From Candidatus Staskawiczbacteria bacterium RIFCSPHIGHO2_01_FULL_39_25 (GTDB taxonomy: Bacteria; Patescibacteriota; Minisyncoccia; Minisyncoccales; Staskawiczbacteraceae), in assembly GCA_001820095.1 (NCBI GenBank), contig MHOO01000011.1, positions 199,227 through 263,226 of the forward strand: a DNA stretch of 64,000 nucleotides, given 5' to 3'. A program made the translations under genes and the position numbers. Numbering within the stretch: position 1 is the first letter of the stretch; every line of letters begins with the position of its first letter. Positions 1,450 to 16,925 of the stretch are shown piece after piece. The notes beneath the pieces are model-generated. The model searched no databases and was not told where the DNA came from. It saw only the letters and a program-made list of their open reading frames with translations.

Positions 1450-2319
1450 ATGATGAATCAAGGCGCCTATACCATTATTCTTTTTTATAAGTTCACTCAT
1501 ATAAAAAATCCCGAGAAATTTAAAATACAGCAACGCAAGATTGCCGAGTCCTTTGGTTTAAAGGGCAGAATGTTAATTGCCACAGAAGGGGTCAATGCCA
1601 CGTTTGAGGGAACTACCAAAAACATCAAAGGCTATATGAAGTCATTGAGACAGCAAAGGGTATTTAAGGATGTAACTTTTAAGGATAGCGCCGGAAATGG
1701 AAAAGCCTTTACAAAATTAATGGTGAAAGTACGGCCTGAGGTAGTAACCTTGGGTGCAGGAGATTTTAATATTAAAAAAGAAACGGCAAGGGCGATTACC
1801 GCAAAAGAACTTGACCAGTTTTACCAAAAGAAGGAAGATTTTGTGGTGCTTGATTTACGCAATGACTATGAAATCCAAGCAGGACACTTTACAAATACCG
1901 TAAACCCAAAATTAAGGAATTTTAGGGAGCTGCCTGAAAAAATGAATGAATTAGCGCATTTGAAAAGTAAAAAAGTAGTGGCAGTATGCACGGGAGGCAT
2001 CAGATGTGAAAAGGCAACCTGCTTGTTAAAGAAAAAAGGATTTAAAAATATATATCAATTAAAAGATGGCATTCATGCGTATATTAAAAAGTTTCCCGGA
2101 AAAAATTTTAAAGGGTCTCTTTTTGTATTTGATAACAGGATGACTACCCCTATTGTTGATTCTGCAAACAGGGAAGTAGTAGCCCGTTGCGCTTTTTGCA
2201 ATGCACCATGTGAGGAATTTTATAATGATGACTCATTCAGGCCTTCAAAAAAGGTGATATGCTGCGATAATTGCATTGCGCGATATCAGCATAAGCTCCG
2301 CCGATGCATCCCAGCGTAA
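1450..2319 (+). CDS. trhO: rhodanese-domain protein, TrhO/YceA (UPF0176) family
   Basis: N-terminal ILFYKF region, rhodanese active-site loop CTGGIRCE, C-terminal Cys cluster. Confidence 0.7.
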   Translation: MMNQGAYTIILFYKFTHIKNPEKFKIQQRKIAESFGLKGRMLIATEGVNATFEGTTKNIKGYMKSLRQQRVFKDVTFKDSAGNGKAFTKLMVKVRPEVVTLGAGDFNIKKETARAITAKELDQFYQKKEDFVVLDLRNDYEIQAGHFTNTVNPKLRNFRELPEKMNELAHLKSKKVVAVCTGGIRCEKATCLLKKKGFKNIYQLKDGIHAYIKKFPGKNFKGSLFVFDNRMTTPIVDSANREVVARCAFCNAPCEEFYNDDSFRPSKKVICCDNCIARYQHKLRRCIPA

Positions 2320-3314: not shown

Positions 3315-4148
3315 ATGAGCCAAGATTGGGAATCAAAATTAATGACCTTTGAAGAATATGCCAGAAAAAAACATGATCCAGTATATATTTTTGACGTAGA
3401 ATTTGGCAGTAAAAAAGTAACTTATTTTGGTGCCGAACATAACCACAATCCTGAAAGCCCGATGTTTGATCGCATTGAAGCAGAGTTTAAAAAAGCTGAT
3501 CCCCAGATTGTATTTGTGGAAGGAATGTATTTTTCGCAAGGTGGAAAACAAAAGGCGATCGAAAAATATAAAAATACCGATAGAGAATCGGTTATTAAAA
3601 ATCACGGAGAATCAGTGTATGTTTTCAGGTTAGCGGCTGACGCCGGGATTGAAGTTGATTCTCCAGAATCATCGCTTAGTGATGAAATTACTTTTTTACT
3701 GCAGCAAGAATTTTCAAAGGAACAAATTTTTTGCTTCTATGGGTATCGTCAAATCAATGGATTGCATCGCTTAGCAGATAAATCTAAATTTAATGAAGAA
3801 TTAACAAGATATATTTCAGTTTTTCAAAGGGATAGTCAGTGGAAAGATTTTGATTATTCGCCTGAACATTTGGAAAAAATTGGAAAATCAGTTTGGGGAG
3901 AAGTGCGCGGCGACGTTATGATTAACGATGGGTACCGAACAACACCCGTACCGCCAGAAGATAAGAAATTATTTACACTCATTAATCAGATCAACCAAGA
4001 GGTAACTCATTTTAGAGACTGCAATGTCGTACGGAGAGTTGTAGATGCCTTAAAAACCCACGATCGACTATTTATTATTTTTGGATCAACTCATGCTGTC
4101 ATGCAGGAACCAGCTTTGAGATATTTAGCAGAAAGTTATGATAAATAA
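3315..4148 (+). CDS. hypothetical protein (tentatively TraB/GumN-like)
   Basis: long ORF with AT-rich codon use; FGAEHNH near N-terminus and FGSTHAV near C-terminus resemble the TraB/GumN layout; weak. Confidence 0.45.
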   Translation: MSQDWESKLMTFEEYARKKHDPVYIFDVEFGSKKVTYFGAEHNHNPESPMFDRIEAEFKKADPQIVFVEGMYFSQGGKQKAIEKYKNTDRESVIKNHGESVYVFRLAADAGIEVDSPESSLSDEITFLLQQEFSKEQIFCFYGYRQINGLHRLADKSKFNEELTRYISVFQRDSQWKDFDYSPEHLEKIGKSVWGEVRGDVMINDGYRTTPVPPEDKKLFTLINQINQEVTHFRDCNVVRRVVDALKTHDRLFIIFGSTHAVMQEPALRYLAESYDK

Positions 4149-4149
4149 A

Positions 4150-4239
4150 ATGGCAAAATACGATTCAACAACCAAAGACAATAAATGCATTTTTTGTGAA
4201 ATAGTTTCGGGAAACATAAAAACTCCTGGGCTGTTCTGA
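4150..4239 (+). pseudogene. 5' fragment of a HIT-family (histidine triad) gene
   Basis: encodes MAKYDSTTKDNKCIFCEIVSGNIKTPGLF*, a typical HIT N-terminus (CIFC..V.G); stop TGA is the first 3 nt of the repeat at 4237. Confidence 0.6.
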
Positions 4240-4298
4240 TAAAGGTGGCTGACACCTTTACTCACCTTTACTCCTTTACTTTGACACCTTTACTCGAG
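4237..4298 (+). repeat. direct repeat copy 1 (tgataaaggtggctgacaccttta + cctttac words)
   Basis: 24 nt identical to 12411-12434, followed by similar cctttac/ctttaac word run; contains hairpin taaaggtg-gctga-caccttta. Confidence 0.7.
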
Positions 4299-4427
4299 AA
4301 AATAATATACCTTATAAACCGTTACGCGACGGGGAGGTAATTATCGTTAATGATAATAATTTGGAAATCATAAAATAAAAGAAGGGTGACAACTCGAGTA
4401 GTTATCACCCTTTTGGTTTGCAGGAAA

Positions 4428-5732
4428 TTACGGCGTCAGCCGGTTAGGGCCACGGTAGAGATACGTGGCTTCTCGGATGTTTTTGACACCCAGAAGCATC
4501 ATCAGTACCCGAGCCAGGCCGAGTCCGAAGCCTCCGTGTGGCGGACAGCCATAGCGGAAGCATTCCAAATAGTACTTGATTGGATCCAGGGTCAGGCCTT
4601 TCTCCTGGGCTTGCTGGACCAGAACATCGTACCTATGCTCACGCTGGGCACCCGTCGTCACTTCGAGTCCTTTCCAAAGAAGGTCGAAGCTCTTGGTGGC
4701 TTTCGGGCTATCAGCGTGGCGCATGTGGTAGAACGGACGCACGCTGATCGGGTAGTCGGTCACAAACACGAAGTCGTGGCCGGTTTTTTCTTTCATGTGA
4801 GCGCAGAGTTGGCGCTCGCCTTCGGGATCAAGGTCGCCCTTGGTCTCGGCGGAGAGCACGTGGCCGCGCTGTGCGAGAATCGCGTACGCTTCCTGCATCG
4901 AAAGACGCGGGAAAGGCAGCGTGGGAACTTCCACTTCGACGCCGAAGTACTTGGCCACGGCTTCACTGTGCTTGTCCTTGAGGGACTGGAGTACGTACTG
5001 GAGCCACCGCTCTTCGAACTTCATGACATCGTCGTGGGATTCGATCCAGGAAATCTCCACGTCCACACTAGTAAACTCCGTCGCGTGTCTGGACGTGAAT
5101 GACGGTTCAGCACGGAACACCGGTCCGATCTCAAACACCTTGTCGAAGCCCGCCGACATCGCCATCTGCTTGTAAAACTGAGGCGACTGGGCAAGGTACG
5201 CATTGGTCTCGAAGTATTTGACGGTGAAAAGCTCTGATCCCGATTCACTCGGACTTCCCATGAACTTGGGTGAGTGGATCTCGATGAAACCTTCTCTGGT
5301 CCAGAACTCGCGCATGGCGTGTTCCGCCGCCGTTTGGATCTGGAAGATCAGGTAGTTGGCGGGACGGCGCAGGTCTAGGAAGCGCCAGTCGAGGCGCAGG
5401 TCCAGGCCGGATTCTTCCGTGATAGGAAGAGTCGGAGGAGCCACGTTGATGACTTTGAGGTCATCGATGGCGATTTCCAGACCGCCGAGCTTAATCTTTT
5501 CGTTGGCGACCACGGTGCCGGTCAACTCCACTGCGGTTTCTGCTGTGAGGCTAGAGATGAGGACGCTCAGGGGATCCTCCTTCTTTTCACGCACGGTCTG
5601 GACGAGGCCAGTATGGTCGCGAACGACGATGAACTGGACCCGCTTCTGGTCGCGGAGGGTCTGAACCCATCCTTTGACGCAGACGGTGCTGCCGACGGCA
5701 CTTTTGAGAGTGCTGATCAAGGTACGTTCCAT
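4428..5732 (-). CDS. aspS: aspartyl-tRNA synthetase, archaeal/short type, GC-rich copy
   Basis: class II motifs FRAE, GLEVTTGAQREH, GGFGLGLARVLM; 434 aa without the bacterial insertion domain; G/C-rich third positions unlike host genes; RBS gaaaggaagg upstream. Confidence 0.9.
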   Translation of the reverse strand: MERTLISTLKSAVGSTVCVKGWVQTLRDQKRVQFIVVRDHTGLVQTVREKKEDPLSVLISSLTAETAVELTGTVVANEKIKLGGLEIAIDDLKVINVAPPTLPITEESGLDLRLDWRFLDLRRPANYLIFQIQTAAEHAMREFWTREGFIEIHSPKFMGSPSESGSELFTVKYFETNAYLAQSPQFYKQMAMSAGFDKVFEIGPVFRAEPSFTSRHATEFTSVDVEISWIESHDDVMKFEERWLQYVLQSLKDKHSEAVAKYFGVEVEVPTLPFPRLSMQEAYAILAQRGHVLSAETKGDLDPEGERQLCAHMKEKTGHDFVFVTDYPISVRPFYHMRHADSPKATKSFDLLWKGLEVTTGAQREHRYDVLVQQAQEKGLTLDPIKYYLECFRYGCPPHGGFGLGLARVLMMLLGVKNIREATYLYRGPNRLTP

Positions 5733-5869
5733 AAGAACACCTTCCTTTCAGGTTAGATGACTTGTTAAGGTTCTTATTTTACAGATCTAGACGATAAGTA
5801 AAATACTATGCTACTTTACCTCTTTATTATATATTTGTCAATATTTTATAAAACAAAAATTATGCTATC

Positions 5870-7195
5870 ATGAATGACATGGAAAAGATACATATTGATC
5901 AAATAAAAAATAATATCGGTAAGCAGATAACTATTACCGGATTCGTCCAAACGATCAGAGATCAGAAAAACATTAAGTTTTTTTTGATCCGTGATATTTC
6001 AGGAGTCATCCAGGTTGTCATTACCAAAGACAAGGAAGAGGCATTCAAAAATTCTTCCGGTTTGAGTTTGGAGTCAGTAGTAGAAATTACCGGTTTAGCT
6101 AAAGAAGAAAAACAAGCGCTAGGAGGTTTTGAAATAGCCGTAGAAAGCATTGCGACACTCTCTTTATCTGATCCAGAACTTCCAATCCCTGTTATCGAAA
6201 AAGGCCAACAAGAAGAAACCGACCAGTCGATTCGTCTTGATTGGCGATGGATTGATTTACGTAAAGAAAAAAACACTTTGGTATTTAAAGTGTGGACCGT
6301 TATGGAGCAGGCGTTCCGGGAATACTGGGTTAAGAACAACTATATTGAAATCCATTCTCCAAAACTCATTGCTACCGCAAGTGAATCTGGTTCAGAAGTA
6401 TTTGAAGTGAAATATTTTGAACGCAAAGCTTATCTTGCCCAATCTCCGCAATTTTACAAACAAATGGCCATGGCCGGCGGATTTGAAAAGGTATTTGAAG
6501 TAGGGCCGGTATTTCGAGCTGAACCATCGTTCACATCACGGCATGCTACAGAGTTTACCGGTTATGATACTGAAATTTCTTACGTAAAATCCCATTACGA
6601 TATCATGGAAGAAGAAGAAAAAGTAATTCAATATGCATTAGAAAAAGTAAAAGAAAAATATGGCGAAGAAATCTTGAAAGTATTCGGCAGGGAAGTAGTA
6701 GTTCCTAAAATTCCTTTTCCAAAGATTTCTATGAAAGAGACTAAAGAAATACTAGCGAAGATGAGAATCAAAAGCGAAAAGGAAGGCGATATTTCTCCAG
6801 AAGAAGAACGAAAAATCTGCGAATACGTTAAAGAAAAAGAAAACCACGAATTCGTATTTATCACTGAATATCCGGTAAGTGTGCGGCCGTTTTATCACAT
6901 GCATGATGAAGAAGACCCAAAAGTTACTAAGAGTTTTGATTTGTTATGGAACGGTCTTGAGGTAACTACGGGGGCGCAACGTGAACACAGATACGACGTG
7001 CTGGTTGCGCAGGCCAAAGAAAAAAAGATGGATATTGAACATTTGCAATTTTATCTTAACTTTTTTAAATATGGCTGTCCTCCGCATGGCGGTTATGGTA
7101 TGGGTCCCAACAGAATGATTATGCAGCTTTTGGGACTTGATAATGTTCGAGATGCGATGTTTGTATATCGCGGAGTTAATCGATTGACGCCGTAA
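5870..7195 (+). CDS. aspS: aspartyl-tRNA synthetase, archaeal/short type, AT-rich copy
   Basis: 441 aa with the same class II motifs; long blocks identical to the 4428-5732 product; host-like codon use. Confidence 0.9.
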   Translation: MNDMEKIHIDQIKNNIGKQITITGFVQTIRDQKNIKFFLIRDISGVIQVVITKDKEEAFKNSSGLSLESVVEITGLAKEEKQALGGFEIAVESIATLSLSDPELPIPVIEKGQQEETDQSIRLDWRWIDLRKEKNTLVFKVWTVMEQAFREYWVKNNYIEIHSPKLIATASESGSEVFEVKYFERKAYLAQSPQFYKQMAMAGGFEKVFEVGPVFRAEPSFTSRHATEFTGYDTEISYVKSHYDIMEEEEKVIQYALEKVKEKYGEEILKVFGREVVVPKIPFPKISMKETKEILAKMRIKSEKEGDISPEEERKICEYVKEKENHEFVFITEYPVSVRPFYHMHDEEDPKVTKSFDLLWNGLEVTTGAQREHRYDVLVAQAKEKKMDIEHLQFYLNFFKYGCPPHGGYGMGPNRMIMQLLGLDNVRDAMFVYRGVNRLTP

Positions 7196-7209
7196 AGATA
7201 TTTTGCGTA

Positions 7210-7251
7210 AAAAAATAGCTCGGGGTGAAATGATTCACTCCGAGCTTTATT
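7210..7251. terminator. bidirectional hairpin terminator between convergent genes
   Basis: agctcggggtga-aatgat-tcactccgagct flanked by an A-run and a T-run. Confidence 0.6.
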
Positions 7252-8304
7252 TTACGTCGGGGTTGCCAGATGATCAAGGAAATCGCAATAGGCTGCAGTC
7301 AATGGAGCCTCTTTACTACGTTCCCCGATAATCCGCCTTGCAATGCCTTGAATCCATGTCGCACTGTGCTTGTTATGAAGCCGGAAGGCTTCGCAAGCAA
7401 GAGTTGACAAGATGTCAGCCCAAACTGCCGCATATTCTCCCCAGAATTTGCTCATCTGGTCGAACATTGCGTTGGCTGAGTGTGCGCTTTTGCTTCTTAT
7501 GTCTGCTTCCTCCTGGACCAGCCTGAGCCTCAACGTTTCTGAGAACGACGAGATTGCAGGCATGGCGCAGGATTCAGCCGTTTCTCGCGAAAGTTTTTGA
7601 GCTTTGGCAATATTTTCACCTCTGATGTGCATTGACACCGCGGTGTGCCAATAATTGCCAAGCCTTAAACCTGTGCAAGCAGACATGCATTCCTGCAAAA
7701 GCGAGAACTCGAACACGTTGTAGGGCAACAGTTGTATTGCATCGTTCGCGCGCATAGCGACTGTTGTGTGCAACGTGTCACTTCGCGGCATGAAAGCGAT
7801 ATTGAGCGTGCATGGAATGTCTTGTGATTCCAAGCGCGCAAGATCACTTGCGTCATGGAGGTCGATTACCGCCCGCTTCGTGTCGGAACGAGTCGAAATG
7901 GTTTTTGAAGCCAAATCAAACTGGTTCTTTCCTGAAGCTCCTCCAAAAATCCTCATGCCGTATGAAGAACCTGGTATGGTGATACCGTCGTCTGAAAAAC
8001 AGCAGGCTGATTTGGAGTAGAACGCAATCGGCTCAAGCAGATTCGATCCGGATAGCATATAGATGAAGCGCGCTGCCGCAAGTCCTGGATTGAACAGGGG
8101 CAATGCGCTTTTGAATATGCGTTTTCGCGGATCAGTCAGACAGAGCTGGGCATTGAACACTTCCTGAATCGAGAAGTCCCGGTTCATAGAGTGTTCGCCC
8201 GATTGGTAAGTAATGCCATGCGCACTAATCCTGCCGATCATTTCGCGTATGACCGCATTCGTGTCGTCACCCATGACGACACCTACCGAATGTAGTGAGT
8301 CCAC
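7252..8304 (-). CDS. thymidylate synthase / dCMP-hydroxymethylase-fold protein with C-terminal extension
   Basis: IPCTLNIAFMPRSDTLHTTVAMRANDAIQLLPYNVFEFSLL aligns by eye with ThyA [37 protein letters not shown] (Pro-Cys nucleophile, R-x-x-D, LP-x-N); GTG start 1 nt after upstream stop; GC-rich. Confidence 0.7.
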   Translation of the reverse strand: MDSLHSVGVVMGDDTNAVIREMIGRISAHGITYQSGEHSMNRDFSIQEVFNAQLCLTDPRKRIFKSALPLFNPGLAAARFIYMLSGSNLLEPIAFYSKSACCFSDDGITIPGSSYGMRIFGGASGKNQFDLASKTISTRSDTKRAVIDLHDASDLARLESQDIPCTLNIAFMPRSDTLHTTVAMRANDAIQLLPYNVFEFSLLQECMSACTGLRLGNYWHTAVSMHIRGENIAKAQKLSRETAESCAMPAISSFSETLRLRLVQEEADIRSKSAHSANAMFDQMSKFWGEYAAVWADILSTLACEAFRLHNKHSATWIQGIARRIIGERSKEAPLTAAYCDFLDHLATPT

Positions 8305-8305
8305 A

Positions 8306-9856
8306 TCAAGTCCTCCTTTCTTGTCGGATGAATTCCGTCAGATCCTTCAGGTTTGCCGATGGCTGACAGAGTTGGTTGAGATCTTCGGTCCAGATGCTCA
8401 TCTGGTTTCCTATGATCGGATCAATCACTTCCGGATGAGAAGCCTCATCCTTTTCGACGAGCCGAAAGTGCTTTGCGGCTTGATACGCATTTGCCAAGTC
8501 GTTTTGTGGAATGCCGGTCAACTCGCGTACCACATGATCCGCAAACATGATTCCATGTTTTGCATAGTCCTGAAGCAGGCGCATTGTAGTGTACAGGCGC
8601 AGAGCGGGCGTTTCCATTGCCGAATATGCGACTTGGAATACAAAGTTGCGCATGTCCAGCAAAGAATCGATTCCGGGTTCCACTTCCCGAGCATAGCCAA
8701 GAAGAACATCAGTTGGGCGGGTAACTGCAGTAAGCTGTAGCACATCCCTAGAAATAGTTTCCCAGTAGCCTTTCCAGGAATTTATATGTTCCACCGGCTG
8801 CCAAGAATCGGGCGATGATGCGTTGACGATCATTCTTCCGTTTGCGGGAAGATAGACCGATAGCCTCCTTGAGTGGAATTGACGGGGAGTGTTGTAATTG
8901 GGAACTTGTCCCAATTTTGACCGCCAGTAGGTGTATCCTCGAAGGACGGTTTCGTAAAAATTGTGCCCTTCTCCGTGGGTGCCGCGCATAGAAAGGTTAA
9001 AGAAACTGTCGCCAATTTCTTCCACTTTCTTGACATCGCTCCACGAAGTTCCAGGCACATCCTGTTTCGACATTTTCTTGGCAAAGCCAAGAAAATAGGT
9101 TGGTTTGTAGATTACCGGAATTTCCATGTCTCCGGTAACCAGCCAGCGGGTGGGGAATGCGTCGATGATGGGCAGATTGATTACCGGATCAGAAGGATTC
9201 TTTTCCGGCAGCAATTCTGCTCCAAGTCTTTGCGCCAGTTGGATGTCCAGGTTTTGGTTCGGATCAAGGATAGTGCGAACGACGGGACGGATATTGATTC
9301 CGTCGTCGCTTCGTGCGACCGCATACCTGATTGCATGCAGCACATTCTCAACGGACACGTTGTGGAACGTGTCGTAGCTGATGCGCAGGATGAATGTTAA
9401 ATTCCGTCCTCGCATCTTGTTTCCGCGACGCATGGCGTCGATGAACCTGTCCAACATCCGTTCGGTGGCTTCCGCGCTTTCAGCGAAATAAACGCTGGTG
9501 ATGGTCACCACTTCGTGGATGTTTTCCAGATTTTCGACTGCGTAGCACATGGCATCCATGTTCTCATACGATTCTCCGCCGCCGGAAAATACCAGCAACT
9601 GAGCCTTGGCCTCGTTCATGATCTTCACGAAAATTCGCATCTGATCCATGGAGAGCCGAGGCGGAGAACCACCAAAAATCTTTTTTGCCATTGCCGCCGA
9701 AAAGAGGCAGTTTGGGCATGTCAGTGCGCATTGGTCGGCAGCGTTGACGACCATAACCGAAACTTCGAGATTTTCAGCAGACCCGATTTCCGGTACATGT
9801 CGCGCAAGATAGGCGCGCAGTAAATGGGCGTTGCGATCATCAAACAAAGCGTTCAT
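8306..9856 (-). CDS. radical SAM protein with ~300-aa uncharacterised C-terminal domain
   Basis: CxxxCxxC motif CALTCPNC, glycine-rich FSGGGES; GC-rich; aggag RBS. Confidence 0.75.
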   Translation of the reverse strand: MNALFDDRNAHLLRAYLARHVPEIGSAENLEVSVMVVNAADQCALTCPNCLFSAAMAKKIFGGSPPRLSMDQMRIFVKIMNEAKAQLLVFSGGGESYENMDAMCYAVENLENIHEVVTITSVYFAESAEATERMLDRFIDAMRRGNKMRGRNLTFILRISYDTFHNVSVENVLHAIRYAVARSDDGINIRPVVRTILDPNQNLDIQLAQRLGAELLPEKNPSDPVINLPIIDAFPTRWLVTGDMEIPVIYKPTYFLGFAKKMSKQDVPGTSWSDVKKVEEIGDSFFNLSMRGTHGEGHNFYETVLRGYTYWRSKLGQVPNYNTPRQFHSRRLSVYLPANGRMIVNASSPDSWQPVEHINSWKGYWETISRDVLQLTAVTRPTDVLLGYAREVEPGIDSLLDMRNFVFQVAYSAMETPALRLYTTMRLLQDYAKHGIMFADHVVRELTGIPQNDLANAYQAAKHFRLVEKDEASHPEVIDPIIGNQMSIWTEDLNQLCQPSANLKDLTEFIRQERRT

Positions 9857-9934
9857 CTTTTTCTCCTGGGTTTGAGTTCGGTGCTATATTCTCTCTCGAT
9901 AGAGAGCTTTGACAAGGAGCAATCTTTTGCGTAA

Positions 9935-9963
9935 ATAATAATATAGAATTATAAAAATGTCAA
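9935..9963 (-). promoter_or_regulatory. sigma70-like promoter for 8306-9856/7252-8304 unit
   Basis: minus strand TTGACA, 17 nt spacer, TATTAT in the AT-rich spacer. Confidence 0.5.
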
Positions 9964-9984
9964 CAATAAAAAAGATAATTTTAC

Positions 9985-10017
9985 CATAATAAAACCCCCG
10001 ATTTCTGGTCGAGGGTT
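9985..10017 (-). terminator. terminator after methyltransferase gene
   Basis: minus strand aaccctcga-ccagaaa-tcgggggtt hairpin followed by a T-rich tract. Confidence 0.5.
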
Positions 10018-10038
10018 ATGGCTGAAAAACAGCCTTTA

Positions 10039-10776
10039 TTACTTTGAGGCGCTGCAATGTTTGAAAATTGCGCGCACTGATCCATGGCGATGGTTTTCTT
10101 CGGAACCGGCATGGCTGTGAACGATGTCAGTTTCATCCCAGTGGAGCAGGCTCCAATTTTCCGGCCCGAATAGAGTTTTGATCCGTTCGGGGTTCATAAT
10201 GACTCCTTTCAGTTCCGGCTGGATGTCTGGAGCGGGGTATTTGTCTGTCAGGCTTTGCATGATCAGGTAACCGCTTTTGAGAACGATTTGCCTGATGGCA
10301 TCAATTACTTGATGTAGGACAGATTCTTCCTTGAACACATGCAGAAGGCCGTAACAGACTACGATGTCGAATTGCTCACGGTTGTGTTTCAGGAAGCTGA
10401 GCGCGTCATCTTTGACGAGCGCGATTCTTCCTTCTGGCAACAGTCCCGATTCTTCAAGTTTCACGGTAACATCAAGCAATGTTGCCATGGCAAGAGAATC
10501 TATTTCGACAGCGATAGCCCGTTTAACATCTCGACGGACAAATTCCATGATGTTTTTGCCCGTACCGGCACCCAGTTCCAGAACCGAAAATTCGGTCCAT
10601 GGCAAAGATGCCATCTGGTTGAAGAAATGAACCACTTCGCTTCCAGGCTTTAAGCCCCAGAAATCCAATCCATGGGAGCGATAGCCGTTCCTGTAGAGGC
10701 CGATGCCTTCGCCACTTCCTTTTTGAGGATGGGCGAGGACTTCTTGCATTTCTTCGACAGTGAAGAGTGGATTCAC
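10039..10776 (-). CDS. class I SAM-dependent methyltransferase
   Basis: motif I VLELGAGTGKN, acidic AVEID, post-I VVCYGLLH; GC-rich; 14 nt downstream of radical SAM gene. Confidence 0.8.
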   Translation of the reverse strand: MNPLFTVEEMQEVLAHPQKGSGEGIGLYRNGYRSHGLDFWGLKPGSEVVHFFNQMASLPWTEFSVLELGAGTGKNIMEFVRRDVKRAIAVEIDSLAMATLLDVTVKLEESGLLPEGRIALVKDDALSFLKHNREQFDIVVCYGLLHVFKEESVLHQVIDAIRQIVLKSGYLIMQSLTDKYPAPDIQPELKGVIMNPERIKTLFGPENWSLLHWDETDIVHSHAGSEENHRHGSVRAIFKHCSASK

Positions 10777-10790
10777 TTTGACCCCCTTTC

Positions 10791-11786
10791 TTAATAAGTT
10801 TTTTGGGCGTTTGCGGTTATGGTGAACAGACCGTTGACTGACTGGAGTCGGTTGATGATAGCTTTGGGTTGATCTGTCAGGATATTACTCATGAACACAT
10901 CCTTGGTTCCCTGAGTGACTGTCACGACACCGGTAGGTTGCACGAGGAGTGCCGGACTTGCGTAGAAGTCGGCAAGGCTGTGGATGGTCACCCGGATTTT
11001 GTCTCTGAACAGGCGCAGTGCTTCTTCTACGATTGTCCTGTAAGTGTCATCCGAAACACTCATTCGGTCGGCGTTCAATCCTGAAGTACGTCCGACTTCC
11101 CGCCCGAAGAACTGTGTCAGCTTCCAGTTGTCCACGCCAAGGTCTACCATCATGTGGCCCAGTTGGACAATCTTGTTGATGTCTGAGGTCACTGAGGTGA
11201 TCGTGGTACCGACCTTTACTTTGAAGCCGTACTTTTTCAGTTCGGGGATTAGGGCAATCGTTTTGGTGAAGGCAGCATCGTCTCCCCTGATTTCGCTGTT
11301 GGACTTGGCATCCGGGCCGTCCAGTGAAAGCGAGAACCACTTCACATTTCTGTTTGCACAGAATGCCAGCATGGAATTTGTGACATGCATGCCCGTGGTT
11401 TGCACGATCGTTTCCCGGTTGCGCCGAGAAATTTCATCTACCAGTAGGAGAACGTCGTTGCGGTGAGATTCCGGGTCAGCCCTGACGAAAATCTCGCCAC
11501 CAGTGAGTTGAATCCTGTCCGTCAAAATGGCAAGACTGTTGATGATTTTTGCCATTTGTTCGGTGGAGGCGTCCCTGGTGAGTCCCTGGAACTCCTCTTC
11601 CGCATAGCAGTGCGGACACTGCAGATGACAGCGTCCCGTCACGTAGAGGGAAACAAAACCGATGCGAGCAGCCAGGGCAGGCAGTTTTTCATACTGTTCG
11701 AATATTTCAGCGAGTGCTTGGGCGCGTTTGTCGCCCAATTCCTGGCGGGAAGTAACGTACTTCCTGCTAACCTGTGGTAGTTCCAT
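10791..11786 (-). CDS. radical SAM protein, viperin-like (tentative) / MoaA-like fold
   Basis: CHLQCPHC cluster motif, LTGGEIF, SLSLDG; C-terminal NWKLTQFF...SVSDDTY parallels viperin RWKVFQCL...SDEEF by eye; GC-rich. Confidence 0.7.
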   Translation of the reverse strand: MELPQVSRKYVTSRQELGDKRAQALAEIFEQYEKLPALAARIGFVSLYVTGRCHLQCPHCYAEEEFQGLTRDASTEQMAKIINSLAILTDRIQLTGGEIFVRADPESHRNDVLLLVDEISRRNRETIVQTTGMHVTNSMLAFCANRNVKWFSLSLDGPDAKSNSEIRGDDAAFTKTIALIPELKKYGFKVKVGTTITSVTSDINKIVQLGHMMVDLGVDNWKLTQFFGREVGRTSGLNADRMSVSDDTYRTIVEEALRLFRDKIRVTIHSLADFYASPALLVQPTGVVTVTQGTKDVFMSNILTDQPKAIINRLQSVNGLFTITANAQKTY

Positions 11787-11964
11787 GGCATCTTCCTTTC
11801 GTTGATGGGGTTGATTGTAAAAGAGCCGTTCATGCTCTCTAGTACTAGTGTATCAGTGTGCTAATATAATATCACTTATAATTACTTTTGTAAAGACTTT
11901 TGACCATTGAAAATTATTGCATTTTGGTTAGAAAAAAGGCAAAATGGATTTATTAGAAATTAAT

Positions 11965-12378
11965 ATGAATATTTTTGAAAGGGTTAAAAAATTGAATTTT
12001 CCACTAGGAGAATATGTTGTCATCGGAGCTGGTATCCTTGAAGCTATTGGGATAAGGAATACTCATGATGTCGATATTATTGTGGCGCCACAATTGTTTG
12101 AGAAGCTTAGAGAATCTAAAATCTATAAAGAAGAAATAAAGTGGGGCAAAATATTTTTAATTGGAGATGAAATTGAAATTGGTACCAAATTAGATTGGGA
12201 AAACTATTCAACTACTATTGAAGAAGCAATTAATACTGCAGCTATTATTAACGGTGTGCCGTTTTTAAACCTTGAAGAAACTATAAAATTTAAAAGGGCG
12301 ATGGGCAGGAAAAAAGACTTTAAAGATATTGAATTGATAGAAAGTTATTTAAAAAATTATGATAAAAATCTACTTTAA
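11965..12378 (+). CDS. hypothetical protein, nucleotidyltransferase-fold-like
   Basis: VVIGAGILEAIGIRNTHDVDIIV resembles a minimal NTase G-x-motif plus DxD; ATG 11965 preferred over 11944 because the fragment at 13263 starts at the equivalent residue. Confidence 0.45.
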   Translation: MNIFERVKKLNFPLGEYVVIGAGILEAIGIRNTHDVDIIVAPQLFEKLRESKIYKEEIKWGKIFLIGDEIEIGTKLDWENYSTTIEEAINTAAIINGVPFLNLEETIKFKRAMGRKKDFKDIELIESYLKNYDKNLL

Positions 12379-12396
12379 TTTTAATAAGTATAGAGT

Positions 12397-12475
12397 GGAT
12401 AAAGGTGTCATGATAAAGGTGGCTGACACCTTTAACTCCTTTAACTTTAACTCTTTAACATGACACCTTTAACCC
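12397..12475 (+). repeat. direct repeat copy 2 (tgataaaggtggctgacaccttta + ctttaac words)
   Basis: 12411-12434 identical to 4237-4260, same orientation. Confidence 0.7.
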
Positions 12476-15203: not shown

Positions 15204-16925
15204 CTATTTACTTACTAGATAATTTCCAATTGCTAGATAATCCATTTTAGTTCTCTTAAAAGTTTTTATGGCATCTTCTGGAGAGCATACGATAGGCTCA
15301 TTGTCGTTAAAGGAAGTGTTAAGCACAATAGGTACTCCAGTGCGTTTATAGAACTGATATATAAGTTTGTGATATAGTGGATTAGTTTTTTTGCTAACTA
15401 CTTGCAGACGACCTGTCCCATCTATGTGAATTACTGATGGTATTTTTTTTTGTTTAATTTTTTTTGCATCAAAGTTTACTTCCATAAATTCTGCAGATAA
15501 AGATTTTCCCCATCGGTGTTCTTTGAACCAACTTGATAAAAACTCCTTAAGTACGCTTGGTGCAAACGGTCGGAAGGATTCACGTCGCTTAATGCGTTCG
15601 TTAAGAATTTCTTTCATATCCTTTCGACGTGGATCAGCAAGAAGCGAACGATTTCCTAATGCTCTAGGACCCCATTCTTCTCTTCCCTGAAACCAGCCTA
15701 TAATTTTTCCCTCGGATAATTTTTCTGCTACTTTTTCTGTAATATCCGTAGTTTTTTTATAGGAAGAAATTTTAAATTTTTTTAGAGCTGAAATAATTTC
15801 TAAATCAGAGTATTTCGGACCCCAGTATACATTTTCCATTATAAATGAGCGTGGTTTATTTAACTCTTGATGCCAAATATAATAAGCTGCTCCCAGGGCT
15901 GTGCCCGCATCATTAGCTGCCGGCTGAACATATAAATTTTTACAGATAGAATTTTTCAAGAGTAAACTATTAGATACACAATTCAACGCTACGCCACCAG
16001 CAAGACATATATTTTTTGAACCTGTTTTTTTGGAGAGAAAAGTAACAAGATGGATAACTACATCGTCGGTAATTGCCTGGAGGGCAGCTGCTATATCTTT
16101 ATGATTTTTCGTTGGTTTTAATGGACGCCTAATCTCTTTTGGTGTTTTAAATAAATCTTCAAGCTGGCTGAAATCATCCATTCGGAAACGCATAATGCTA
16201 TTATCTACAGTAAATTCTCCGTCCGCTTTTAGTTGAACTATTTTTTGAAAAATTTTATAGAATCTTCTCGGATTGCCATAAGCAGCTAGACCCATAATTT
16301 TTGAAGCGTCATATTCTGTAAACCCTAAATATTTGCTAATTTTTTCCCAAAGAAAACCTAGGGAATTTGGATAATAAATTTCTTTAAGGACTTGAATGGC
16401 ATTATTCTTCCCATATCCCATCCAAGTAGATGAGAGCTCACCAATACCATCAATAGATAGTATTGCAGATTTAGAAAATGGTGAAACAAAAAAGGCGCTA
16501 CTTGCGTGACAAATATGATGGGGAATCCACCGGATTTTTCTACTTAAATCTTCACCAGCTAGATGGTTTAATAATAATGGGACTCTGGTAATTTTTTTAT
16601 AAAATAATCTTTCTCCTCTTTCACTGCCCCAGTTTCCGGGCATGTAATAAGAATCGACATTAATATTCTTCAGTCGTTCTTTTGGGGAGAATGAAAGACC
16701 AATGTAATTAACGCGCTTAAGTGGGATTTGTGCTATATCTAAGCAATAGTTTATCGCTTCTTTTGGTAAAACATCTGGATTATTAATTAAGGCTTGCTTA
16801 CCACGCTTTATACGTGAGAACCTTTCTTCTTCAACGGCCGCTAATAATTTACCGTTTTTAATAATACAAGCCGATAACTCGTGATAAGCAAAATTAAGTC
16901 CTAAGATGTATGTAGGTTTTTTCAT
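15204..16925 (-). CDS. carbamoyltransferase (NodU/CmcH family)
   Basis: N-terminal ILGLNFAYHELSACIIKNGKLLAAVEEERFSRIK and 573-aa length typical of the family. Confidence 0.8.
   Translation of the reverse strand: MKKPTYILGLNFAYHELSACIIKNGKLLAAVEEERFSRIKRGKQALINNPDVLPKEAINYCLDIAQIPLKRVNYIGLSFSPKERLKNINVDSYYMPGNWGSERGERLFYKKITRVPLLLNHLAGEDLSRKIRWIPHHICHASSAFFVSPFSKSAILSIDGIGELSSTWMGYGKNNAIQVLKEIYYPNSLGFLWEKISKYLGFTEYDASKIMGLAAYGNPRRFYKIFQKIVQLKADGEFTVDNSIMRFRMDDFSQLEDLFKTPKEIRRPLKPTKNHKDIAAALQAITDDVVIHLVTFLSKKTGSKNICLAGGVALNCVSNSLLLKNSICKNLYVQPAANDAGTALGAAYYIWHQELNKPRSFIMENVYWGPKYSDLEIISALKKFKISSYKKTTDITEKVAEKLSEGKIIGWFQGREEWGPRALGNRSLLADPRRKDMKEILNERIKRRESFRPFAPSVLKEFLSSWFKEHRWGKSLSAEFMEVNFDAKKIKQKKIPSVIHIDGTGRLQVVSKKTNPLYHKLIYQFYKRTGVPIVLNTSFNDNEPIVCSPEDAIKTFKRTKMDYLAIGNYLVSK

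What the first reader, a model, noticed from the sequence alone, without database searches (positions are those of the whole stretch)
7252..11786. GC-rich cluster: viperin-like radical SAM + methyltransferase, then second radical SAM + thymidylate-synthase-fold enzyme
Seen: four minus-strand GC-rich genes sit in an AT-rich genome as two tight units. Unit 1 is 10791-11786 (radical SAM, CHLQCPHC) followed after 14 nt by 10039-10776 (SAM MTase, VLELGAGTGKN), ending at a hairpin terminator near 9985-10017. Unit 2 has its own TTGACA-17-TATTAT promoter (9935-9963). It contains 8306-9856 (radical SAM, CALTCPNC, with a ~300-aa unknown C-terminal domain) and, 1 nt later, 7252-8304. The last protein aligns by eye to the ThyA catalytic core (IPC.., R-x-x-D, LP-x-N) and carries an extra C-terminal tail. 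The 331-aa radical SAM protein has LTGGEIF, SLSLDG and a C-terminal NWKLTQFF...SVSDDTY segment resembling viperin RWKVFQCL...SDEEF. Established: viperins dehydrate NTPs to 3'-deoxy-3',4'-didehydro-NTP chain terminators. TS-fold enzymes alkylate C5 of pyrimidine nucleotides (ThyA, dCMP/dUMP hydroxymethylases, CMP hydroxymethylases of nucleoside-antibiotic pathways, phage DNA hypermodification). Inference: this is a pathway producing a modified pyrimidine nucleotide or nucleoside, acting as an antiviral, an antibiotic or a nucleic-acid hypermodification. I do not know this four-gene combination from described systems.
Basis: partly seen in the sequence, partly recalled or inferred. Interest (0 to 1): 0.85.

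Follow-up and report, generated by a model that had tools for sequence, protein, structure and literature searches.

The report
Nucleotide-modifying gene island with aspartyl-tRNA synthetase copies
In the tiny genome of an uncultured groundwater bacterium (Patescibacteria, probably Saccharibacteria), there is an 8-kb stretch of foreign DNA that some cells carry and others seem to lack. It holds four enzymes that probably build a modified pyrimidine nucleotide, plus extra copies of the enzyme that loads aspartate onto its tRNA (aspartyl-tRNA synthetase); that combination suggests, without proving it, a small-molecule weapon carried together with its own protection.

Summary
Four minus-strand genes lie in an AT-rich genome (743 kb, 99% complete; window GC 0.39) and are GC-richer (0.49–0.52). 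They are: a 331-aa radical SAM enzyme (10791-11786); a class-I methyltransferase 14 nt downstream (10039-10776); an AT-rich terminator and an 11/12 promoter match; a 516-aa radical SAM enzyme with an unassigned C-terminal helical domain (8306-9856); and a thymidylate-synthase-fold enzyme 1 nt downstream (7252-8304). The 331-aa protein has a viperin-like fold but fails the viperin family cut-off; by sequence it sits as near to MoaA/SkfB. The TS-fold enzyme is closest to the CMP 5-hydroxymethylase MilA. It keeps the catalytic Cys, R..D and the uracil-binding Asn of ThyA where MilA has Asp, so a uracil-type substrate is predicted. Here two extra non-discriminating AspRS copies sit inside an 8.2-kb island bounded by a unique 23-nt direct repeat. 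One of them (GC3 0.72) belongs to a clade found only with the module. The host has its own bacterial-type AspRS elsewhere. Best reading: a mobile pathway that makes a modified pyrimidine nucleotide or antimetabolite, with the AspRS copies as self-protection. This is inferred, not shown.

The parts
4238..4260 (+). left copy of a 23-nt direct repeat that occurs only twice in the genome (29 nt at 93%), bounding the island
   Evidence: 2 matches genome-wide, both flanking the island
4428..5732 (-). aaRS_b: full-length archaeal-type non-discriminating AspRS paralog, GC 0.57/GC3 0.72, in a clade found only with the module
   Evidence: clade with L007_b and L001_b, 100/100 support; motifs intact; E->D at a position invariant in 15 other ND-AspRS
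5870..7195 (+). aaRS_a: second ND-AspRS, AT-rich, housekeeping-type lineage, inside the island bounds
7217..7246 (.). bidirectional terminator-like palindrome between aaRS_a and the TS-fold gene
7252..8304 (-). TS-fold C5-alkylating enzyme, MilA-like (CMP 5-hydroxymethylase fold) with the uracil-type Asn at ThyA N177; predicted (d)UMP hydroxymethylase or methylase
   Evidence: (MilA 5b6d E 4.8e-28; catalytic Cys in CTL, RAND, LPYN)
8306..9856 (-). rSAM516: radical SAM enzyme (CxxxCxxC, GGE) with an EpeE/YydG-like core and an unassigned helical C-terminal domain (~360-516); rare family
9935..9963 (-). sigma-70-like promoter match for the rSAM516–TS operon
   Evidence: 11/12
9993..10017 (-). intrinsic-terminator-like hairpin ending the rSAM331–MTase operon
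10039..10776 (-). class-I SAM methyltransferase with weak spermidine synthase/aminopropyltransferase similarity
10791..11786 (-). rSAM331: radical SAM enzyme without SPASM, viperin/MoaA-type fold; own family
11944..12378 (+). 144-aa AT-rich protein with no Pfam match, inside the island bounds (part of the island, role unknown)
12412..12434 (+). right copy of the 23-nt direct repeat bounding the island
   Evidence: (one contig in run X3 joins 4270 to 12415, skipping the island; weak)

Best explanation
The stretch 4238-12434 is a mobile genomic island. Its presence varies among cells. It carries a four-enzyme pathway that modifies a pyrimidine nucleotide:
- The MilA-like TS-fold enzyme adds a hydroxymethyl (or methyl) group at C5 of a uracil-type nucleotide, using methylene-tetrahydrofolate.
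- The viperin/MoaA-type radical SAM enzyme (331 aa) probably remodels the sugar of a nucleotide, as viperin does with CTP.
- The second radical SAM enzyme (516 aa) carries out a further radical step, such as an epimerization or C–C bond formation.
- The methyltransferase caps the product.
The final product would be a nucleoside or nucleotide antimetabolite. The island also carries one or two extra aspartyl-tRNA synthetase copies, and the module sits next to an AspRS gene in every genome where it is found. This suggests the product inhibits aspartyl-tRNA formation and the extra copies protect the producer, as with mupirocin and its producer's second IleRS. Shown: the genes, their fold families, the key catalytic residues, the conserved order of the module, the steady link to AspRS genes, and the bounds of the island. 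Inferred: the substrates, the product, the target and the protective role.
For: Fold assignments: TS fold with MilA as the closest solved structure and its catalytic residues kept. The 331-aa enzyme folds like NTP-acting radical SAM enzymes: viperins and MoaA top the list, and BlsE, from the blasticidin S nucleoside pathway, also appears. The 516-aa enzyme is radical SAM. The module (rSAM331 + MTase + rSAM516 + TS-fold) keeps its order in at least 7 independent contexts: Saccharibacteria, a Paceibacterota genome (CP129473) and unclassified metagenome contigs. An AspRS-family gene lies within a few kb in all 7. In 3 loci the extra copy belongs to a separate, well-supported ND-AspRS clade (aaRS_b) that is seen only with the module. 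The host does not need these copies: it has its own bacterial-type AspRS and GatCAB. The island is bounded by a 23-nt repeat found only there in the genome. In three runs contigs break at both ends, and contig depth is lower inside the island than in the flanks; one contig joins 4270 to 12415 across the whole island. The gene family is rare: rSAM516 was found in only 1 of 401 Patescibacteria genomes sampled. This pattern fits an accessory, selfish module better than a housekeeping pathway.
Against: No product, substrate or inhibition has been measured. No AspRS-specific chemistry is evident: there is no adenylating enzyme (as in microcin C) and no aminoacyl-transferase. The aaRS_b copies have intact motifs, with only two consistent substitutions, so any resistance would have to be subtle. 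In two contexts the neighbouring AspRS is the ordinary housekeeping one, not an extra copy (L004 ND-type; L038 bacterial-type). So the AspRS adjacency could reflect an insertion hotspot rather than a target. The island-free form rests on one contig with only 20 nt on one side of the joint. The TS-fold's predicted uracil substrate is inferred from one residue.
Confidence: 0.45

Rival explanations
1. A phage-defence system built around a viperin-like enzyme. The radical SAM enzymes and the TS-fold enzyme together make chain-terminating or otherwise toxic modified nucleotides during infection. The AspRS adjacency reflects where the island inserts or simply travels with it.
For: The fold is viperin-like. 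The PADLOC pVip model hits at 65 bits. Defence islands vary in presence across a population, as this one seems to. In one relative (L039) the module sits next to conjugation/T4SS genes, and a distant relative sits next to an integrase.
Against: The 331-aa protein fails the curated viperin cut-off, and among its closest 43 relatives none is named viperin. No close relatives turned up in viral contigs. No defence-system models hit the other three proteins. The steady link to AspRS is left unexplained.
Confidence: 0.2
2. A pathway that hypermodifies DNA or nucleotides, like the phage 5-hydroxymethyl-dUMP pathways that lead to thymidine hypermodification, here used to modify the host's own DNA or nucleotide pool.
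For: The TS-fold enzyme has the uracil-type Asn and hits phage thymidylate synthase PHROGs strongly. SAM-dependent and radical SAM tailoring enzymes are typical of nucleotide hypermodification.
Against: The known phage enzymes that act later (the 5-HMUDK kinase and the amino-acid:DNA transferases) are absent from the island. There is no phage context. The AspRS link is unexplained.
Confidence: 0.1
3. A tRNA-Asp/tRNA-Asn-linked modification system. The enzymes modify a nucleotide, or the tRNA itself, in a way that bears on aspartylation, and the extra AspRS copies are adapted to handle the modified tRNA.
For: AspRS genes are adjacent in every context. The extra AspRS copies keep full anticodon-binding domains, which suggests tRNA binding.
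Against: TS-fold enzymes act on free nucleotides, not tRNA. The aaRS_b copies differ from housekeeping ND-AspRS at only two otherwise invariant positions, none in the anticodon domain.
Confidence: 0.1
4. An insertion hotspot next to aspS. The module and the AspRS genes share a neighbourhood by chance of how they move (e.g. a recombination site near aspS), with no functional link.
For: In L004 and L038 the neighbour is the ordinary housekeeping AspRS. The orientation of the module relative to aspS varies between loci.
Against: A separate, well-supported aaRS_b clade is found only with the module, and it shares the module's high GC. This is more than co-location.
Confidence: 0.15

Closest known systems
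Prokaryotic viperins (pVip) and eukaryotic viperin (RSAD2), which turn NTPs into ddhNTP chain terminators
   Same: The 331-aa enzyme is a radical SAM enzyme without a SPASM domain. Its predicted structure superimposes best on viperins (mouse 6Q2P/6Q2Q, TMq 0.70/TMt 0.79; T. virens and Nematostella viperin-likes), and it scores 65 bits against the PADLOC pVip model.
   Different: It fails the NCBIfam prokaryotic-viperin cut-off (56 against 180 bits). By sequence profile it is as close to MoaA/SkfB, and it forms its own family. It is encoded with three other enzymes and AspRS copies, not as a stand-alone defence gene.
MilA, CMP 5-hydroxymethylase of the mildiomycin nucleoside-antibiotic pathway (PDB 5B6D/5JNH)
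   Same: It is the closest solved structure to the TS-fold protein by sequence (E 4.8e-28), with the catalytic Cys and the R-x-x-D in register.
   Different: At the ThyA N177 position our protein has Asn, which recognises uracil, where MilA has Asp, which recognises cytosine. So the substrate is probably uracil-type. The protein also has an extra C-terminal tail, and the other mildiomycin enzymes (hydrolase, glycosyltransferase) are absent.
Thymidylate synthase ThyA, and phage dUMP/dCMP hydroxymethylases
   Same: Same fold, with ThyA's catalytic core kept (IPC-nucleophile, RAND, LPYN). Phage TS PHROGs hit strongly.
   Different: It scores far below ThyA equivalog cut-offs. It sits in a biosynthetic module, not a nucleotide-salvage or phage context.
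Radical SAM peptide epimerase EpeE/YydG (PDB 8AI1-8AI6), for the 516-aa enzyme
   Same: It is the top structural match for the radical SAM core (TMt 0.62), with a weak YydG-family profile hit.
   Different: The hit is 22 bits against a 300-bit cut-off. The ~150-aa helical C-terminal domain matches nothing. There is no sign of a peptide substrate.
Self-resistance by a duplicated aminoacyl-tRNA synthetase in antibiotic producers (e.g. the second IleRS in the mupirocin cluster; LeuRS with agrocin 84; SerRS with albomycin)
   Same: The island carries full-length extra copies of the aaRS class (AspRS), one from a distinct lineage found only with the pathway, while the host keeps its own AspRS.
   Different: No resistance has been shown. 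The two extra copies differ only subtly from housekeeping ND-AspRS. No known antibiotic made by this pathway is known to target AspRS.

Membership tests
Prokaryotic viperin (pVip) | Scores above the curated viperin family cut-off (NCBIfam NF038283, 180 bits) | tested here: not met
   56.1 bits
Prokaryotic viperin (pVip) | Viperin-type radical SAM fold without SPASM | tested here: met
   Foldseek top TM-scores against mouse and fungal viperins; AF2 model pLDDT 93.5
Prokaryotic viperin (pVip) | Nearest sequence relatives are viperins | tested here: not met
   None of the 43 nearest homologs is named viperin; the next tier is named MoaA/NifB/PqqE/SkfB; profile nearest to MoaA/SkfB
Prokaryotic viperin (pVip) | Converts an NTP to a ddhNTP | not testable with these tools
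   needs an in vitro assay
Thymidylate synthase superfamily (PF00303) | TS fold with the catalytic Cys nucleophile and the R-x-x-D/Asn residues that bind the pyrimidine | tested here: met
   PF00303 43.9 bits; alignments with MilA and ThyA keep the C, RAND and LPYN
ThyA (thymidylate synthase proper) | Above ThyA equivalog cut-offs; closest to ThyA | tested here: not met
   PRK01827 42.9 bits against a 327 cut-off; MilA much closer than ThyA
CMP hydroxymethylase (MilA-type) | Asp at the cytosine-recognising position (ThyA N177 equivalent) | tested here: not met
   Asn at that position; MilA has Asp (55 alignment)
Aminoacyl-tRNA synthetase self-resistance (target duplication) | Extra full-length copy of the target aaRS, encoded with the biosynthetic genes | tested here: met
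   aaRS_b is in the island and forms a clade found only with the module; host AspRS on another contig
Aminoacyl-tRNA synthetase self-resistance (target duplication) | The extra copy is resistant to the product | not testable with these tools
   product unknown
Phage thymidine hypermodification pathway (5-hmdU) | dUMP hydroxymethylase plus 5-HMUDK kinase plus amino-acid:DNA transferase, in a phage context | tested here: not met
   Only the TS-fold part is present; no viral relatives
Microcin C-type aspartyl-nucleotide pathway | MccB E1-like adenylating enzyme and precursor peptide | tested here: not met
   No ThiF/E1-like gene in the island

The most novel reading that the evidence does not exclude
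The island is a selfish toxin-and-immunity element of CPR (Patescibacteria) bacteria. It makes a modified pyrimidine nucleoside antimetabolite that blocks aspartyl-tRNA formation; its own AspRS copies make carrier cells immune, so carriers can kill sibling cells that lack it. That would be the first small-molecule antibiotic-like pathway described from the ultrasmall, metabolically reduced CPR bacteria.
Probability: 0.2. Interest if true: 0.85.

Novelty: new variant of a known kind. Interest (0 to 1): 0.55.

Why it matters
CPR/Patescibacteria are thought to have minimal biosynthesis and to depend on their hosts. A mobile island holding four tailoring enzymes for a modified nucleotide together with dedicated aspartyl-tRNA synthetase copies would show that these epibionts carry and trade specialised secondary metabolism. 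It would be a natural case of antibiotic and self-resistance genes travelling together in a mobile element of these organisms. The 516-aa radical SAM family, with its unassigned C-terminal domain, and the uracil-specific MilA-like hydroxymethylase are also unstudied enzyme families. The whole set would make a ready-made test case for nucleoside-analogue chemistry, for example ddh-type or C5-modified uridines.

Tried and rejected
- **Pfam/NCBIfam/PADLOC/PHROG scans:** no Pfam family for the 516-aa protein, and no curated family above its cut-off for any of the four enzymes.
- **Viral contigs:** searches with the 516-aa, TS-fold and 331-aa proteins found no close relatives.
- **Metagenome contig scan:** found no relatives of the 516-aa protein, because of the exact-peptide patterns it uses.
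- **Literature searches:** nothing combining viperin, TS, radical SAM and aaRS, Saccharibacteria biosynthetic clusters, or CMP hydroxymethylase with radical SAM.
- **Flanking repeats in other loci:** none evident in L001/L007; those loci may be too short to reach the island ends.
- **rSAM516 C-terminal domain (330-516):** no informative Atlas match; all TM under 0.35 and feature scores under 0.9.
- **Solved-structure sequence search for rSAM516:** only a chance hit.
- **Expression:** no RNA holder is listed; this is no evidence either way.
- **Considered and rejected:**
The host has a separate bacterial-type AspRS and GatB, and both window copies lie inside the repeat-bounded island.
  - That the island is an assembly chimera. 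The same arrangement is in multiple independent assemblies and in contigs from three independent runs.
- **Not assessed:** whether the bacterial-type AspRS on contig C12 is discriminating.


Full report
**What is there.** The window is G000:C11:199227-263226 of a 743,289-bp, 12-contig, 99%-complete genome, probably a Saccharibacteria (Patescibacteria/CPR) bacterium. The closest relative of one island gene is an uncultured Candidatus Saccharibacteria MAG at 86% identity. The genome and its flanks are AT-rich (window GC 0.39; nearby host genes 0.27-0.38).

- a 331-aa radical SAM enzyme (10791-11786, -), with Radical_SAM at 57 bits;
- 14 nt downstream, a 245-aa class-I SAM methyltransferase (10039-10776, -), with Methyltransf_25 and weak spermidine-synthase/aminopropyltransferase hits;
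- a terminator-like hairpin (10017-9993) and an 11/12 sigma-70 promoter match (9963-9935);
- a 516-aa radical SAM enzyme (8306-9856, -) with no Pfam hit;
- 1 nt downstream, a 350-aa TS-fold protein (7252-8304, -).

Coding GC is 0.49-0.52, with GC3 0.52-0.61. Assemblies from three independent sequencing runs cover the whole block, and the same module is assembled in other genomes. It is real, not a chimera.

**The enzymes.**

*TS-fold protein.* It matches PF00303 and phage TS PHROGs strongly (E 8e-36). Its closest solved relative is MilA, the CMP 5-hydroxymethylase of the mildiomycin pathway (PDB 5B6D, E 4.8e-28), far closer than ThyA (about 1e-6). It keeps the catalytic Cys (CTL), R-x-x-D (RAND) and the Asn of LPYN that, in ThyA (N177), binds uracil. 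At that Asn position MilA has Asp, the cytosine-recognising state. From the established specificity role of this residue, a uracil-type substrate (UMP/dUMP) is predicted; this is inference.

*331-aa radical SAM enzyme.* PADLOC pVip hits at 65 bits, but the NCBIfam prokaryotic-viperin model gives only 56 bits against a 180-bit cut-off, and several other radical SAM families score as well or better. Its 43 closest homologs form a separate family; the next tier is named MoaA/NifB/PqqE/SkfB, and none is called viperin. A profile of its family finds MoaA and SkfB first (1e-10) and viperins weaker (4e-6 to 1e-3). The AlphaFold model (pLDDT 93.5) superimposes best on viperins: mouse 6Q2P/6Q2Q TMq 0.70/TMt 0.79, plus T. 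virens and Nematostella viperin-likes. SkfB and BlsE, the blasticidin S radical SAM enzyme, also appear. It is therefore a viperin/MoaA-type nucleotide-acting radical SAM fold, not a viperin by family membership.

*516-aa radical SAM enzyme.* It belongs to a rare family: 22 proteins, and only this genome among 401 Patescibacteria genomes sampled. Its model (pLDDT 84) matches the radical SAM peptide epimerase EpeE/YydG for the core (TMt 0.62), then MoaA, SpeY and viperins. The helical C-terminal domain (about residues 360-516) matches nothing.

Two full-length archaeal-type non-discriminating aspartyl-tRNA synthetases (ND-AspRS) lie beside the cluster: 4428-5732 (-) and 5870-7195 (+). Yet the genome has its own bacterial-type AspRS on another contig (aspS_bact 590 bits), GatB and no AsnRS.

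In a tree with 12 Patescibacteria ND-AspRS, the two copies fall in different places:
- The AT-rich copy (5870-7195) falls in the common housekeeping-type lineage.
- The GC-rich copy (4428-5732; GC3 0.72) forms a strongly supported clade (100/100) with the extra copies next to the same module in a Saccharibacteria MAG (L007/L014) and a Paceibacterota genome (CP129473, L001).

The catalytic motifs of aaRS_b are intact. It differs at only two positions that are otherwise invariant (E→D just before motif 2, I→V).

Every other context of the full module has an AspRS gene within a few kb. That makes 7 of 7 contexts: L001, L004/L005, L007/L008/L014, L038 (bacterial-type AspRS), the P0019 locus and L039 (ND-AspRS). 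A distant, reduced relative lacking the TS-fold and 331-aa genes sits instead beside an integrase, and L039 sits beside conjugation/T4SS genes.

In this genome a 23-nt direct repeat, present only twice in the genome, flanks 4238-12434. It encloses both AspRS copies, the four enzymes and a 144-aa protein of unknown function. In three independent metagenome runs, contigs break at both ends of this stretch and are less deep inside it. One contig joins 4270 directly to 12415, hinting that some cells lack the island (weak: 20 nt of support on one side).

**Interpretation.** The four enzymes are a tailoring pathway for a pyrimidine nucleotide:
- C5 hydroxymethylation by the MilA-like TS-fold enzyme;
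- a viperin/MoaA-type radical SAM step, probably on the sugar;
- a second radical SAM step;
- methylation by the methyltransferase.

This pathway is carried on a mobile, presence/absence island with dedicated AspRS copies. By analogy with aaRS target duplication in antibiotic producers (established for mupirocin, agrocin 84 and albomycin), the likeliest reading is an antimetabolite that blocks aspartyl-tRNA formation, with the island's AspRS copies as immunity. Substrates, product, target and immunity are all inferred; confidence is moderate (about 0.45).

Rival readings are weaker:
- a viperin-type phage-defence system (0.2), which fails the viperin membership tests and does not explain the AspRS link;
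- an insertion hotspot next to aspS (0.15);
- DNA hypermodification (0.1), which lacks the kinase and transferase steps;
- a tRNA-Asp modification system (0.1).

**Why it matters.** The combination is not described in the literature searched. It would be unusual to find specialised small-molecule chemistry in CPR bacteria. Interest 0.55; a new variant of a known kind (a nucleoside-tailoring cluster with aaRS immunity).

**Next steps.** Decisive tests are enzyme assays with candidate pyrimidine nucleotides, LC-MS of co-expressed pathway products, and AspRS inhibition and resistance assays with the host-type and aaRS_b enzymes.

Noticed in passing
window 4238-4260 and 12412-12434: A 23-nt direct repeat (29 nt at 93%) occurs only at these two places in the genome, flanking the GC-rich island. 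One contig in run X3 joins 4270 to 12415, skipping the island (weak support).
   Followed up: partly
window 4100-6500: Contigs in all three deep runs break repeatedly around the two AspRS genes (near 4143-4158, 5390, 5672, 5916, 6064, 6469). A loose end at 4158 continues into a GGAATGAGGAATG-type repeat, suggesting strain-level structural variation at the left end of the island.
   Followed up: partly
G000 contig C12 (locus L011 1462-2910) and C4 (L030): The host's own AspRS is a 482-aa bacterial-type enzyme (shorter than usual, probably lacking the GAD insertion). The genome also encodes GatB but no AsnRS, so Asn-tRNA is probably made by the indirect route.
   Followed up: partly
L039 11697-16849 (GCA_964648715.1 contig): In this relative the module is followed by a conjugation/type IV secretion cluster (TrbC/pilin, PrgI, TraG-like DUF87 ATPase, M23 peptidase), with QueC and a DNA methylase nearby. 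This hints that the module travels on conjugative elements.
   Followed up: no
L040/L041: A distant relative (30% identity) of the 516-aa radical SAM protein is paired only with a methyltransferase and a small ferredoxin, beside a phage-type integrase.
   Followed up: no
window 11944-12378: A 144-aa AT-rich protein with no Pfam match lies inside the island bounds; it may be an island gene of unknown role.
   Followed up: partly
window 1450-2319; 2276-2917; 15204-16925: Nearby host genes: a TrhO-type tRNA uridine-34 hydroxylase (rhodanese), another class-I methyltransferase, and a NodU/CmcH-family O-carbamoyltransferase (573 aa).
   Followed up: no
L001 13650-14972: The Paceibacterota genome carries a third, long-branched AspRS-like copy next to the module, whose identity is uncertain in the tree.
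   Followed up: no
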